Under the pieces are notes generated by a model. It ran no database searches, had not been told where the DNA came from, and saw nothing but the letters and a program-made list of their open reading frames with translations. Positions 1,805 to 63,373 of a stretch of 64,000 bases of DNA are shown here, piece after piece. The DNA is taken from assembly GCA_951406725.2 (NCBI GenBank), contig OX597832.1:55366001-55430000 (forward strand), in the 5' to 3' direction. A program made the position numbers and the translations under genes. Source of the DNA: Octopus vulgaris. Its lineage: Eukaryota. How positions within the stretch are numbered: the first letter of the stretch is position 1; each line of letters begins with the position of its first letter.

Positions 1805-2356
1805 CCCAGTGTGTCACTGGTACGCAATTTACCAACCTCGAAAGGATGAAAAGCAAAGTCGACCTCGGCGGAATTTTGAACTCAGAACGTAAAGACGAAA
1901 GAAATGCCGTTAAGTATTTTGCTCGGCGTGCTTAACCATTCTTATTTCTTTACTACCCACAAGGGGCTAAACACAAGGAGACAAACAAGGACAGAAAAAC
2001 GGATTAAGTCGATTATATCGACCCCAGTGCGTAACTGGTACTTAATTTATCGACGCCGAAAGAATGAAAGGCAAAGTCGACCTCTGCAGAATTTGAACTC
2101 AGAACGTAACGGCAGACGAAATACCTATTTCTTTATTACCCACAAGGGGCTAAGCACAGAAGGGATAAACAAGGACAGAAAAACGGATTAAGTCGATTAT
2201 AACGACCTCAGTGCGTAACTGGTACTTAATTTATCGACTCCGAAAAGATGAAAGGCAAAGTCGACCTCTGCAGAATTCGAACTCAGAACGTAACGGCAGG
2301 CGAAATACGGCTACGCATTTCGCCCGGCGTGCTAACGCTTCTGCCAGCTCGCCGCC
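1805..2356 (-). mobile_element. SINE family B, multimeric array
   Basis: tRNA-like head ggcggcgagctggcagaa...gagttcaaattcc followed by gaggtcgactttgcctttcatcctttcggggtcgataaa, which resembles a Nin/Deu-type SINE central domain; ~184-bp body units repeated. Confidence 0.85.
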
Positions 2357-7449: not shown

Positions 7450-7900
7450 TATTTGGTTTTTTTTTTCTTCTTTATATTTTTCTTTCACATCAAAGACTTA
7501 AAAGCAACAACTTCTATATACATTTTTAAAATCTTCTTTTTCTTCTTCTTCTTCTTCTTTTTCTTCTTTTTTCTTCTTTTTCTTCTTTTTCCTTTTTCTT
7601 TTTCTTCTTCTTCTTATGATGATGATGATTCTTTGCCTTCTCGTACTTGTTTTTATCCTTCTTTATCTTCATCATCTCTCTTTTCTTTCCTCTTCTTCGT
7701 CTTTCCTTCTTTATCTTCACCATCTTTTTCTACTTCTTTTCTTTCTTCTTTTTCATCATCCTCATCTTTTCCTACTTTTTTTTTCTTTATCATCATCATC
7801 ATCATCATCTTCTCTCTTCTATTTTAATCATCTTTTTCTACTTTTTTCCTTCTTCTTCTTCGCCGTCTCCTCCTCCTCCTCCTCCTCCCCCCCCCTCCTC
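7450..7900. repeat. Polypyrimidine (TTC/TCA/CCT) low-complexity tract
   Basis: Seen directly; source of several spurious ORFs. Confidence 0.9.
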
Positions 7901-30409: not shown

Positions 30410-31184
30410 TTCTGCTTTAGGCACAAGGCCTTGAAAATTTTGGGGGAAGGCGACAGTCGATTATATCGACCTCAGTGCATAACTGGTACTTAATCCATCG
30501 ACCCCGAAAGGATGAAAGGCAAAGCCGACCTCGGTGGAATTTAAACTCAGAACGTAACAGCGGGTGTTAGTATTTTGCCCGGCGCGCTAACGATTCTCCC
30601 AGTTCACTACCTTTACAATAATAATAACCTGAAATTTGGGGGTGGGGGATAGTCAATTACATTGACTCTAGTGTTTCGCTGCTACTTAATTTATCGACCC
30701 CGAAAGGATGAAAGGCAAAGTCGACCTCGGCGGAATTTTAACTCAAGCGTAGCAACGGGAGAAATACCTATTTCTTTACTACCCACAAGGGGCTAAACAG
30801 AGAGGGGACTAACAAGGACATACAAAGGGATTAAGTCGATTATATCGACCCCAGTGCGTAACTGGTACTTATTTCATCGACCCCCGAAAGGATGAAAGGC
30901 AAAGTCGACCTCGGTGGAATTTGAACTCAGAACGTAACGGCAGACGAAATACCTATTTCTTTACTACCCACAAGGGGCTAAACACAGAGGGGACAAACAA
31001 GGACAGACAGACGGATGAAGTCGATTATATCGACCTCAGTGCGTAACTGGTACTTAATTTATCGATCTCCGAAAGGATGAAAGGCAAAGTCGACCTCGGT
31101 GGAATTTGAACTCAGAACGTAACGGCAGACGAAATACGGCTACGCATTTCGCCCGGCGTGCTAACGTTTCTGCCAGCTAGCGGC
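30410..31184 (-). mobile_element. SINE family B multimeric array
   Basis: Four central domains; unit spacing 185 bp (acctatttc at 30766 and 30951). Confidence 0.85.
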
Positions 31185-33453: not shown

Positions 33454-34065
33454 GGCGGCGAGCTGGCAGAAACGTTAGCACGCCGGGCGAAATGCTAAGC
33501 GGTATTTCGCCTGCCGTTACGTTCTGAGTTCAAATTCCGCCGAGGTCGACTTTGCCTTTCATCCTTTCGGGGTCGATTAAATAAGTACCAGTTACGCACT
33601 GGGGTCGATATAATCGACTTAATCCGTTTGTCTGTCCTTGTTTGTCCTCTCTGTGTTTAGCCCCTTGTGGGTAGTAAAGAAATAGGTATTTCGTCTACCG
33701 TTACGTTCTGAGCTCAAATTCCGCCGAGGTCGACTTTGCTTTCATCCTTTCGGGGTCGATAAATTAAGTACCAGTTACGCACTGGGGTCGATGTAATCAA
33801 CTTAATCCCCTTGTCTGTCCTTGTTTCACCCCTCTATGTTTAGCCCCTTGTGAGCAGTAAAGAAATAAGAAACTTATGTACGCCGTGCGAAATATTTAAT
33901 GGTATTTCGTCTGTCTTTATGTTCTGAGTTCAAATTCTGCCGAGGTCGACTTTGGCTTTCATCCTTTCGGGGTCGATATATAAAGTAACAGTTGCTTACT
34001 GGAGTCGATCTAATCGACTAACCTCTCCCCAAAAAATTTCGGGCCTTGTGCCTAGAGTAGAAAAG
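33454..34065 (+). mobile_element. SINE family B array
   Basis: Full head plus two young units, followed by an older copy. Confidence 0.85.
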
Positions 34066-35849: not shown

Positions 35850-36358
35850 TCAACTGGTACTTATTTCATCGACCCCGAAAGGATGAAAGGTAATGTCGAC
35901 CTCGGCAGAATTTGAACTCCGAACGTAAAGACGAGCGAAATACCTATTTCTTTACTACCCACAAGGGGCTAAACACTGAGAGGACAAACAAGGACAGACA
36001 AACGGATTAAGTCGATTATATCGACCCCAGTGCGTAACTGGCACATATTTAATCGACCCCGAAAGGATGAAAGGTAAAGTCGATCTCGGCGGAATTTGAA
36101 CTCAGAACGTAACGGCAGATAAAATACCTATTTCTTTATTACCCACAAGGGGCTAATAACAGAGGGGACAAACAAGGACAGATATAGGTATTAAGTCGAT
36201 TATATCGACCCCAGTGCGTAACTGGTACTTAATTTATCGACCCGAAAGGATGAAAGGCAAAGTCGACCTCGGCGGAATTTGAATTCACAACGTAAAGGCA
36301 GACAAAATACGGCTACGCATTTCGCCCGGCGTGCTAACGATTCTGCCAGCTCGCCGCC
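35850..36358 (-). mobile_element. SINE family B trimer
   Basis: Unit spacing 184 bp (35942, 36126). Confidence 0.85.
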
Positions 36359-48665: not shown

Positions 48666-49409
48666 GGTTCGCCAGAAATATGTGTACTTGAATGGCTTAT
48701 AAGCAGTGCGCTTGCACGCAAAAGTATATATACATATATATATATATATACATGGCCTATATGTGTGTGTGTGTATATACTCGCTGTGAGTATTTTATAA
48801 CGCTTTGTGCAAATGACCTCAATATGTGATAAATCCGACTCCGTCTCTCTTATCAACAGATTAGTGAGTTTAATTGGTTTTGTTGCCGTTTATATTCGTG
48901 TCCTCGTCACAAACCTACTTCAGATTTAGCCTTTCCAAACAACGCTCAACTACCGGCTACACCCATATGCCAGTACATGCCATTCAGGCTGTAGATTGCG
49001 CCCACATTGGGGCACCAACGTTAGGGGTTTTACCCTAACATATTCACTTGCCCTAACATATTCACTTGCCCTAACATATTCACTTCGCAATCACCACGCG
49101 GTCCCACGTTCGATTTTGTGGGGAAAAAGTTTTCTTTTTTCTTTCTTTTCTAATGCTCGGGTCACCCTTAGACTTTACGAAGTGAAACCGTGTTGACGGA
49201 GACTGTAATAGGCGTATGCATCCACGGCCGTGTGGTTGAGAAGCGCCATTTGCAACCATATGGTTTCGGATTTAGTCCCACTGCACGGCACTTTAGGCAA
49301 ATGCCTACTAATGTAGCTCCGCCGGACAGACTGATGACTCAGTGAATGAATTTGGTGTTGAACCCGTTGTAAATATGTCTGCCACTCTTTTCACTTGTTC
49401 TTTTGTTTC

Positions 49410-49555
49410 TATTTTTTCTCTTCTTATCTTTCCTTTCCGTAGAAGAGCATAGGCTCGAAACGATAAAGATTTCTTCCAATTTTCCTCAGCGTCGACCTAA
49501 TATATACTGTTGGTTGTTTTTCTTCTTTCACCACGTCTCGTTTTTTAAACTTCTG
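49410..49555 (+). mobile_element. Penelope-LTR-like short repeat with variant hammerhead motif (diverged copy)
   Basis: cttt-ccgtaga-a-gagc(atag)gctc-gaaacgat-aaag at 49433-49469; aligns with 52755-52935. Confidence 0.55.
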
Positions 49556-52687: not shown

Positions 52688-52754
<67 letters not shown>

Positions 52755-52758
<4 letters not shown>

Positions 52759-52935
52759 ATCGTTAGCCACTACACACATCTTTTTCTCTCCTTGTTTTTT
52801 TCTGTGTCCCTTTCAGTAGAAGAGCGTAGGCCCGAAACGTAAAATACTTTTTTCTATTCCTGAGCGTTATACTAATACATCTGTTTGTTTTGTACACCAC
52901 CTGTCTTCGTCTTTTGTTTTTTTCGTAAACTCTCC
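52755..52935 (+). mobile_element. Penelope-LTR-like short repeat with variant hammerhead motif, embedded in (TA)n
   Basis: Reverse complement of 63114-63300; motif ttt-cagtaga-a-gagc(gtag)gccc-gaaacgta-aaa at 52811-52844. Confidence 0.6.
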
Positions 52936-53725
52936 CTATATATATATATAGGTTATGAGAGGTAATGGTGTCAGTGAGACCCAAAGGTGTCAGGTAATGC
53001 TAAATAAGTGCTATGGATAGACCATAGTTAAGTTCCAGGTTCGGTGATAATGCGAATAAAGGTTTCAACGTTGGTCATATATCAGCGTGTGTACACAAAA
53101 CATTCTTTCCATAATGAGATAAAAAACCAAGGCCGTGTAGATTTTAAAACATTTATAAATAGAAGGTATATATATATAAATATATAAATAGAAGATATAC
53201 ATATATATATATACATTTATATAGGTGTAGTTGTGTGGTACGGAGCTTGCTTCCCAACCACATGGTCCCGGGTTCAGTCCTGAGCAAGTTTCTTTGACTC
53301 AGGCCGGCCAAAGCTATAGTAGAAGACAATTGCTCAAGGTTCCACGCAGTGGGCCTGAACCCGTAATCATGTGGTTGCTAAGCAAGCTACTTACCACACA
53401 ACCACTCCGGCGCCTATTCTTTTATTCTTTTACTTGTTTTAGTCATTTGATGGTGGCCATGCTGCAGCACCACCTTGAAAAGTTTTAGTCGAACAAATCG
53501 ACACGCAAGACCAATTTTTTTAAAAAACCAAATACTTAATCTATCAGGCTATTTGCCGAACCGCTAAGTTACGAGGACGTAAACACACCAGCACAGACAC
53601 AAATACACACACGCACACATACACACACGACGGGTTTTTCAATCTCCGTCCACCAAATCCACTCATAAAGGCTTCGGTGACACTCGAGGTTATAGAAGAT
53701 ACTTGCCCAAGGTAATCACGCAGTG

Positions 53726-60772: not shown

Positions 60773-61172
60773 GCTTCTTTCGGTTTCCCTTATCAAATCC
60801 ACTCACAAAGCTTTGTTCGGTCCGTGGTTAAAGTAGAAGATACTTGCCGAAGGTGCCACGCACTGGGACTGAACTCAGAACCATGTGGTTGGAGAGCAAG
60901 CGTCTTACTAAACAGCCACGCATGCATCCTATGAACCAGTGACGTAATTCATCTTGCGTGATTATTTCTGCAGTGAAAGGTCTTCTCTCGTCCGAATGTA
61001 CACGAACATGTTAAATATAATTGAATACTCTTATATATTATTCAACGCCGCTTCGTGCACCTCCAATTAATTAATTAATTCTAACTTAACTAAGCTTTAC
61101 GCATATCAGATAATGTACTATTTGCAGTTAGAACGATCGTTCTGACACGACTGTCAACAGCTGTTTCGATAT

Positions 61173-61219
61173 TCGTAGCTGATGAAATGTAACGACGCAG
61201 AAACGTAGGCGTCCTACGA
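61173..61219 (+). ncRNA. Type I hammerhead ribozyme motif
   Basis: tcgtag-CTGATGA-aatgtaacgacgca-GAA-acg(tagg)cgt-C-ctacga: 6-bp helix I, 3-bp helix III and a GUC triplet (cut after 61213); helix II is weak. Confidence 0.68.
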
Positions 61220-61364
61220 TTCGATGACGTAAATCATACTCGAATGATATGTTCTCACTCGTATGAGAGAAATTTTCTCTGAAGACAAAATCCGCAGCGA
61301 AAGGACTTTCCACGTCTGAATGCACACGAACATATCTAATATGGATTGTACACACATATACTCT

Positions 61365-63095: not shown

Positions 63096-63113
63096 TATAT
63101 ATATATATATAAC

Positions 63114-63300
63114 GGGAAAGTTTACGAAAATAAACAAAAGACGAAGGCAGGTGGAGTACAAACAAACAAATGTATTAGTATAGCGCTCAGGAATAGAAAT
63201 AGAAAAAGTCTTTTACGTTTCGAGCCTACGCTCTTCGACAGAAAGATACACAGAAAAAAACAAGGAGAGAAAAAAATGCGTGTAGGAGCTAACGATCTAT
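63114..63300 (-). mobile_element. Penelope-LTR-like short repeat with variant hammerhead motif, embedded in (TA)n
   Basis: Minus strand 63246-63209 reads tcttt-CTGTCGA-a-gagc(gtag)gctc-GAA-acgt-A-aaaga. Confidence 0.62.
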
Positions 63301-63305
63301 CATAG

Positions 63306-63373
<68 letters not shown>

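What the first reader, a model, noticed from the sequence alone, without database searches (positions are those of the whole stretch)
63114..63300. Short element family with a non-canonical minimal hammerhead core (CUGUNGA), found in (TA)n tracts
Seen: three related 145-190 bp copies (49410-49555 +, 52755-52935 +, 63114-63300 -). They share helix I (uc)uuu/aaa(ga), a C-n-G-U-n-G-A box with U at core position 6 in all three, an extra A, helix II GAGC(RUAG)GCUC, GAA, and a loop-less palindromic ACGU helix III before the A at the cleavage position (best preserved in the 63 kb copy). Two copies are flanked on both sides by (TA)n. Established: Penelope-like elements carry minimal hammerheads with palindromic helix III that cleave as dimers, and core variants exist. 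Inference: a PLE-derived family with an A6U variant core and possibly microsatellite-targeted insertion.
Basis: partly seen in the sequence, partly recalled or inferred. Interest (0 to 1): 0.72.

Follow-up and report, generated by a model that had tools for sequence, protein, structure and literature searches.

The report
Penelope hammerhead with altered core base
These short repeats are the broken-off ends of a very abundant Penelope-type jumping gene that lands in TA repeats, and nearly all copies carry a hammerhead-shaped RNA motif with one normally fixed core letter changed (A to U), which likely slows its self-cutting and would give a natural test of what these motifs do for the element.

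Summary
The three copies are real but are not a stand-alone short element. They are 5'-truncated 3' pseudo-LTR ends of a Neptune-clade Penelope-like retrotransposon (RT, Zn-linker, C-terminal GIY-YIG; 4.4-kb unit with two motifs), with roughly 45,000-100,000 core-bearing copies. U6 is family-wide: 16,336 exact U6 matches against 622 non-U6. It holds in the oldest subfamily sampled and in four organisms. Related elements in metagenome contigs carry A6, so U6 is likely derived. While subfamilies diverged, positions 7 and 17 changed and the rest of the motif did not (p=0.005), the pattern expected of selection on a hammerhead fold. TA targeting is confirmed (71% versus 3.7% background) and is known for Neptune; the element's own junction carries a fixed TATATAT that could prime on the target. 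Only the 63-kb window copy has an intact core. Published position-6 changes lower activity, and copies do not start at the cut site, so the motif is likely a slowed ribozyme not needed for insertion. Cleavage is untested. I found A6U in no paper searched; the key 2017 paper was unavailable. This scan noted the same A6U in shark-like genomes before (unchecked notes).

The parts
63112..63307 (-). 5'-truncated 3' pLTR copy of a Neptune-clade Penelope-like element (young subfamily)
   Evidence: (39 other genome copies at 97-100%)
63209..63246 (-). minimal type I hammerhead motif: helix I 63246-63242 with 63213-63209, core C3-A9 63241-63235, extra A 63234, helix II 63233-63222, G12-A14 63221-63219, palindromic ACGU 63218-63215, predicted cut after A17 (63214)
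   Evidence: sequence; matches the min-HHR consensus of PMC4209133 Fig. S3 except position 6
63238..63238 (-). U6, the family-wide core change (A6U)
63308..63369 (.). (TA)n tract at the 5' side of the copy (target)
63096..63111 (.). (TA)n tract at the fixed 3' end of the copy (target; its first bases equal the element's own TATATAT junction)
52751..52936 (+). second copy, older A7 subfamily, decayed core CAGUAGA (C3 = 52814), (TA)n on both sides
49405..49555 (+). third, strongly diverged copy, core CCGUAGA (C3 = 49437), ACGA in place of ACGU, followed by (CA)n; boundaries approximate

Best explanation
The copies are truncated 3' pseudo-LTR ends of a high-copy Neptune-clade Penelope-like retrotransposon that sit at TA sites, and the hammerhead motif they carry has U at core position 6 throughout the family while the rest of the motif was kept, so it is likely a slowed ribozyme that would cut only as a dimer or with the element's protein and is likely not needed for insertion. 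Shown: the 4.4-kb unit (pLTR, RT + Zn-linker + GIY-YIG, pLTR), the fixed 3' end and variable 5' end, the TA flank, 11-13 bp target duplications where the target is not a microsatellite, U6 in all subfamilies sampled, A6 in related elements, and constraint on core and stems with free positions 7 and 17. Inferred: the protein nicks at TA; reverse transcription starts inside the RNA at the pLTR 3' end, where the element's own UAUAUAU could pair with the nicked (TA)n primer; copying stops early, often 55-70 nt before the core (perhaps an RNA 5' end), which gives the ~190-bp solo copies; most templates were uncut RNA. Predicted: U6 loses contacts of A6 and lets U4-G5-U6 pair with the ACG of the palindrome in a lone motif, which would keep the monomer off.
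For: Identity: GIY-YIG upstream of the motif; 22 of 30 endonuclease loci have a pLTR match downstream on the same strand within the fetched 1.5 kb; two motifs 4,384 nt apart around the ORF in L095; RVT_1 and GIY-YIG by Pfam, both below the curated cut-off; about 50 of 94 residues identical to Neptune1_Ap by eye; inverted 5'-truncated copy in L044. U6: 16,336 vs 622; 97 of the first 100 with the core box left free (by eye); 23 of 25 core-bearing copies in a 1-Mb systematic sample; 24 of 30 in the oldest subfamily; no variant at or above 5% at position 6 in 4 of 4 runs from four organisms, where position 7 shows all three other bases. Polarity: in 80 related metagenome loci, 21 motif hits, 20 with A6 in their core, none CUGU. 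Constraint: changes on internal vs tip branches 3/83 for core plus stems, 49/305 for flanks, Fisher p = 0.005; position 7 changed 5 times, position 17 twice (A to U only). TA: 99 of 139 ends vs 3.7% background; 8 of 8 junctions have TATATAT. Weak cleavage: A6C lowers the rate strongly in Mg2+ (PMC7151607; PMC3088659); CUGA mutants other than the C3-G8 swap have low activity (PMC9901934); a Poseidon hammerhead needs its protein and is not needed for insertion in vitro (PMC11167929); none of 30 sampled copies starts at the cut site.
Against: No cleavage data of any kind, and I saw no rate for A6U itself. Constraint on the 11 core columns alone is not significant (0/22 vs 49/305, p = 0.09), and the absence of change at the single column 6 is expected by chance more than half the time, so selection for U6 is not shown. 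The test uses a tree built from the same columns and a set weighted to young copies (92 of 122 in one cluster). There is no compensatory change inside the family; covariation appears only across families, in motifs picked by a descriptor that demands pairing. Folded in its whole 201-nt context, the motif's helices have probabilities of 0.03 or less. The loop and the extra A are also unchanged, which fits a protein-binding site as well. A related family with U4C in about three quarters of copies suggests the core may simply be under relaxed constraint in this genome.
Confidence: 0.6

Rival explanations
1. The U6 motif no longer cuts; it is kept as a folded signal (a hairpin bound by the element's protein, or part of the pLTR promoter).
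For: Position-6 changes lower activity; no copies pile up at the cut site; U6 allows a rod-like monomer fold, mean P(G5-C15.2) 0.56 over 35 natural U6 variants vs 0.20 for 8 A6 and 0.04 for 19 C6 variants; loop and extra A are unchanged too; cleavage is dispensable in vitro for another PLE.
Against: The two positions that did change between subfamilies are 7 and 17, the ones a hammerhead leaves free, and 17 is never G in 122 aligned copies, as the NUH cleavage rule (recalled) requires; a mere binding site gives no reason for that.
Confidence: 0.25
2. U6 is a fully tolerated variant: in the intermolecular dimer or with the protein it cuts as well as A6.
For: The family kept multiplying through several subfamilies with U6 and shows no reverted subfamily; natural core variants can be active.
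Against: Mutagenesis of the CUGA turn and the A6C data; no compensating change is visible beside U6; even canonical min-HHRs cut slowly.
Confidence: 0.1
3. The motif has been functionless since A6U, and its conservation is an accident of short evolutionary time.
For: Core-only test not significant (p = 0.09); a second family carries U4C.
Against: Core plus stems are constrained against flanks (p = 0.005); summed contig depth peaks about fivefold over the motif, as expected if diverged subfamilies share this block.
Confidence: 0.05
4. The (TA)n is a tail made by the element and not a target.
For: The element's own junction has TATATAT; in L013 a duplicated stretch lies beyond the 3' TA run.
Against: Copies interrupt (TACA)n, (TATC)n and (TATG)n runs and unique DNA with 11-13 bp duplications and no tail; TA runs also lie at the truncated 5' side.
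Confidence: 0.07

Closest known systems
Minimal type I hammerheads (min-HHR) of metazoan PLE pLTRs (Cervera and de la Pena 2014, PMC4209133; parts 1-2 of 4 of the text and part 2 of 3 of supplement 2 read)
   Same: U-rich 5' flank, short helix I, extra base after A9, G10.1-C11.1, no loop 3 with palindromic 15.1-16.1, NUH site, place in the pLTR, mostly solo copies.
   Different: Position 6 is U; every row of Fig. S3 that I saw has A6 (the descriptor demanded it), the only core change there being U3-A8.
Neptune clade of endonuclease-bearing Penelope-like elements (Craig et al. 2021, PMC8557442; passages and supplement hits read), nearest shown row Neptune1_Ap
   Same: RT with DKG motif, CX2-5CxxC linker, C-terminal GIY-YIG, pLTR partial tandem, inverted truncated copies, microsatellite insertion bias.
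   Different: Non-canonical hammerhead core; long C/T-rich 3' region; fixed TATATAT at the unit junction, a possible template-based route to TA bias where the paper names the Zn-linker as the hypothesised cause. Clade placed by motifs and by-eye identity, no tree with reference elements.
Natural A6C hammerhead of phage Bcep176 (Perreault 2011, PMC3088659, section 8 and passages; Naghdi 2020, PMC7151607, passages and table)
   Same: Pyrimidine at position 6 in a natural core; low activity expected in Mg2+.
   Different: C not U, a single phage example against tens of thousands of genomic copies; Mn2+ rescue is shown for C6 only.
PAc Poseidon element of the green anole (Frangieh 2024, PMC11167929; parts 1-2 of 4 read)
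   Same: AT-rich target, internal start of reverse transcription, no trace of cut RNA among insertions.
   Different: Other clade, canonical core, and its start site is reported as not homologous to the target, whereas here TA microhomology is present.
Animal non-LTR retrozymes (Cervera 2020, PMC7229834, passages; Li 2026 bioRxiv 10.64898/2026.07.22.740005, part 1 of 5)
   Same: Short, non-coding, hammerhead-bearing, PLE-related.
   Different: Retrozymes are tandem repeats; these copies are dispersed 5'-truncated ends of an autonomous element.

Membership tests
EN+ Penelope-like element, Neptune clade | Single ORF with PLE-type RT (DKG motif) and C-terminal GIY-YIG | tested here: met
   (Pfam hits below curated cut-offs; all copies seen are broken); 599 relatives at E <= 1e-30, including coral and shark proteins
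EN+ Penelope-like element, Neptune clade | CX2-5CxxC linker before GIY-YIG and CCHH motif | tested here: met
   C-X4-C-X2-C before the GIY-YIG, two cysteines inside it and downstream histidines in L064, L069, L076; compare
EN+ Penelope-like element, Neptune clade | pLTR partial tandem and inverted truncated copies | tested here: met
   L095 two motifs 4,384 nt apart; L044 inverted copy
EN+ Penelope-like element, Neptune clade | Placement in an RT tree with reference Neptune and Nematis elements | not tested
   only by-eye comparison with rows printed (much nearer Neptune1_Ap than the Nematis rows)
Minimal type I hammerhead (min-HHR) | Core CUGANGA | tested here: not met
   CUGUNGA in 16,336 of 16,958 exact matches
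Minimal type I hammerhead (min-HHR) | GAAA, G10.1-C11.1, extra base after A9, palindromic 15.1-16.1, NUH site | tested here: met
Minimal type I hammerhead (min-HHR) | Helices I and II supported by covariation | tested here: inconclusive
   compensatory pairs across 19 motifs of related families, chosen by a pairing descriptor; none inside the family; low helix probability in full context
Minimal type I hammerhead (min-HHR) | Self-cleavage as a dimer | not testable with these tools
   no raw RNA reads listed; genomic 5' ends give no trace of cutting
Non-LTR retrozyme | Tandem units each with a hammerhead | tested here: not met
   copies are dispersed with a fixed 3' and variable 5' end

The most novel reading that the evidence does not exclude
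A6U is a selected brake, not decay: a natural U6 class of hammerhead that stays folded off as a monomer and cuts only in the element's RNP or dimer, reached independently by very successful Neptune families in cephalopods and (by unchecked notes of this scan) sharks, and missed by all CUGANGA descriptors; the same element aims at (TA)n by pairing its own UAUAUAU with the nicked target.
Probability: 0.25. Interest if true: 0.75.

Novelty: new variant of a known kind. Interest (0 to 1): 0.5.

Why it matters
What hammerheads do for Penelope-like elements is an open question (stated so in PMC8557442). Here one genome holds a huge family with A6U, a related family with U4C and near relatives with a canonical core on the same scaffold, which gives matched natural constructs for asking whether fast, slow or no cleavage is what selection keeps. 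It also means that descriptor-based counts miss tens of thousands of motifs per genome. The fixed TATATAT at the junction makes a second long-standing point, how Neptune elements find microsatellites, testable by a simple swap. The element class, the motif type and the TA bias are known.

Tried and rejected
Rfam scans: whole window gave only microsatellite-driven miRNA noise among the 150 of 243 rows shown; the 63-kb stretch gave no hammerhead. RNA evidence: no RNA holder listed and no raw reads, so expression and cut ends could not be read; one search used contigs only. Lunse, Weinberg and Breaker (RNA Biol 14:1499) is not held; I saw only its title in a reference list, and it may list core variants. 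The eLife mutagenesis supplement was listed but not read; one supplement file of PMC4209133 was not searchable. Idea that an old A6 subfamily survives: the three A6 copies of the oldest type were picked for being non-U6, and an unbiased pattern gave U6 in 24 of 30; rejected. C6 at 4 of 30 there (13 of the first 100 by eye) may be a minor lineage, not resolved. Idea that copies begin at the cut site: 4 of 28 distinct loci on one contig start within about two bases of it, with TA microhomology favouring that spot (by eye), 0 of 30 in the systematic sample; not supported. Idea that U4C favours the same off-fold as U6: it does not. ORF link for the U4C family: not found in 30 loci of 3 kb. Independent SINE or retrozyme reading: rejected. 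Look-up of earlier findings by sequence and by a long word list gave nothing.

Full report
Observation. The three copies are present. With the 63-kb copy as query, BLAST finds 52751-52936 at 88% and 49433-49491 at 79%, and nhmmer finds the same three and nothing else. The 63-kb copy reads as a complete minimal type I hammerhead on the minus strand with U at position 6 (C3 63241, U6 63238, A17 63214). The other two also have U6 but carry further core damage (CAGUAGA with a helix II mismatch; CCGUAGA with ACGA for ACGU). Two copies have (TA)n on both sides, the third is followed by (CA)n. Rfam does not recognise the motif.

Host and abundance. The window lies in a 2.8-Gb animal genome of 227 contigs; that it is an octopus-like cephalopod is my reading from recalled SINE content and the 30 large contigs, not a call result. 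A DNA search scored 40 of 1,545 candidates, all at 97-100%. In 100 stretches of 10 kb taken at fixed coordinates, 31 copies with a 3' end were found, 25 of them with the core; scaled up, 59,000-123,000 ends and 45,000-103,000 cores (the sample is systematic and density is uneven).

What the element is. Copies share a 3' end and differ at the 5' end. Walking upstream through longer copies leads through a C/T-rich region to a GIY-YIG endonuclease. Of 30 loci fetched by that endonuclease, 22 have a pLTR match downstream within the fetched stretch, and several hold RT motifs. L095 has two motifs 4,384 nt apart around a broken ORF; L044 has an inverted truncated copy. Pfam gives RVT_1 (E 1e-6) and GIY-YIG (E 0.009), both under the curated cut-offs. 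The CX2-5CxxC linker with a C-terminal endonuclease marks Neptune or Nematis (PMC8557442, passages), and the RT is about 50 of 94 identical by eye to the Neptune1_Ap row in that paper's supplement and unlike the Nematis rows. Protein relatives include coral and shark sequences at 53-56%. So the short repeats are truncated 3' pLTR ends of a Neptune element.

U6 is the family state. Exact patterns give 16,336 matches with U6 and 622 with another base; among the first 100 of the latter about 73 are C, 19 A and 8 G (by eye), the spectrum of later mutation. With the whole core box free, 97 of the first 100 have U6 and 88 have CUGUNGA, position 7 taking all four bases (by eye). In the systematic sample 23 of 25 have U6. 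In the oldest subfamily sampled 24 of 30 have U6, 4 C6 and 2 A6. Contigs of four runs from four organisms show variants at positions 7 and 17, in the loop and at the CpG of ACGU, but none at 5% or more at position 6. Among 80 related loci from metagenome contigs, a descriptor with position 6 free gave 21 hits in 16 loci: 16 CUGA, 4 CCGA, 1 doubtful U3-A8 hit, no CUGU; 15 of those loci match the family's RT at 41-60%. Other families on the same scaffold in this genome have A6. U6 is thus likely derived. A related family with 11,365 exact matches has A6 but C4 in about 76 of the first 100 (by eye); its ORF was not found.

Is the motif under selection? From 150 dereplicated copies I dropped the 28 picked for being non-U6 and aligned 122. 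On a tree of these, changes on internal branches (inherited from source elements) against tip changes were 3/83 for 29 core and paired columns, 49/305 for 95 flank columns (Fisher p = 0.005) and 7/26 for 7 free columns; position 7 changed five times and position 17 twice, A to U. Core alone is 0/22 (p = 0.09). This is the pattern of a hammerhead kept by selection after A6U, but it does not show that U6 itself is favoured, the set is weighted to young copies and there is no compensatory change inside the family. Across families the first three pairs of helix I and pairs 2-3 of helix II covary, in motifs chosen by a pairing descriptor. Against the fold: in the full 201-nt context ViennaRNA gives the helices 0.03 or less.

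Does it cut? Not tested. Canonical min-HHRs cut slowly and only as dimers (PMC4209133). A natural A6C core has kobs under 0.1 per minute (PMC3088659) and A6C is far slower in Mg2+ but rescued by Mn2+ (PMC7151607). In a full mutagenesis, changes in the CUGA turn had low activity except the C3-G8 swap (PMC9901934). I saw no rate for A6U. In a lone motif U6 allows U4-G5-U6 to pair with ACG (mean probability 0.56 in 35 natural U6 variants, 0.20 in 8 with A6), a predicted off state. Genomic 5' ends give no trace of cut templates: 0 of 30 start at the cut site and 13-14 start 55-67 nt before C3 (2 rows cut by a stretch edge left out); TA-flanked starts near the cut are few and spread. A Poseidon element inserts from uncut RNA and its hammerhead needs the protein (PMC11167929). 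Hence the reading: slowed, conditional, not required for insertion.

Targeting. 99 of 139 defined 3' ends (20 of 159 could not be defined) have (TA)3 within 3 nt, 18 of 27 in the systematic sample, against 3.7% of random positions; 130 of 139 have TA in the first four bases. Copies also interrupt (TACA)n, (TATC)n and (TATG)n, and three in unique DNA have 11-13 bp duplications, so TA is the target. Microsatellite bias is described for Neptune and ascribed by hypothesis to the Zn-linker. Here 8 of 8 junctions between a pLTR and the next unit carry the same TATATAT, and older subfamilies have a similar run. The RNA thus has UA repeats just past the point where copies end, which could pair with the nicked target; it could also be a captured relic. 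This step is inferred.

Novelty. Searches for an A6U or CUGUNGA hammerhead, and for hammerheads in cephalopod or Neptune elements, gave no paper that reports it; Lunse et al. could not be read and subscription journals are not covered. Unchecked notes of this scan report the same A6U in Penelope families of shark-like genomes; I did not test them, and whether this is convergence is open. Verdict: a new variant of a known kind, interest 0.5.

Noticed in passing
window 61161-61238 (+), C3 at 61179: A different, canonical-core type I hammerhead (CUGAUGA, 6-bp helix I, looped helix III), weak Rfam HH9 match (21.4 bits, E 0.002); 22 other diverged genome matches at 74-86%. Helix II is decayed in this copy.
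   Followed up: partly
L227-L256 (for example L130:3628-3664, -): Related pLTR family with 11,365 exact matches whose core is CCGACGA (U4C) in about three quarters and CUGACGA in the rest; also ends at (TA)n in 14 of 22 defined ends. Parent ORF not found.
   Followed up: partly
L095:1568 on the reverse strand; 8 genome places: Fixed TATATAT between the pLTR 3' end and the next unit, a candidate template for priming on (TA)n.
   Followed up: partly
systematic sample; window 63307 and 52751: 5' ends of solo copies cluster 55-67 nt before C3, at a small predicted hairpin; may mark a transcription start or a stall site.
   Followed up: partly
L263-L292: C6 in 4 of 30 (13 of the first 100) copies of the oldest subfamily, more than its neighbours vary; may be a minor CUGCUGA lineage like the phage A6C variant.
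   Followed up: no
L179:5412-5448, L221:7050-7087 and 7505-7550, L226 near 3909: Further min-hammerhead families with canonical A6 cores in the same genome.
   Followed up: no
window 1943-2308, 30679-31137, 33501-33867, 35852-36310: Four short tandem arrays (2-2.5 copies) of one 183-185 bp unit, a dispersed repeat that forms dimers.
   Followed up: no
L293, L337, L349: CCGA (U4C) cores also occur in related Neptune loci from metagenome contigs.
   Followed up: no
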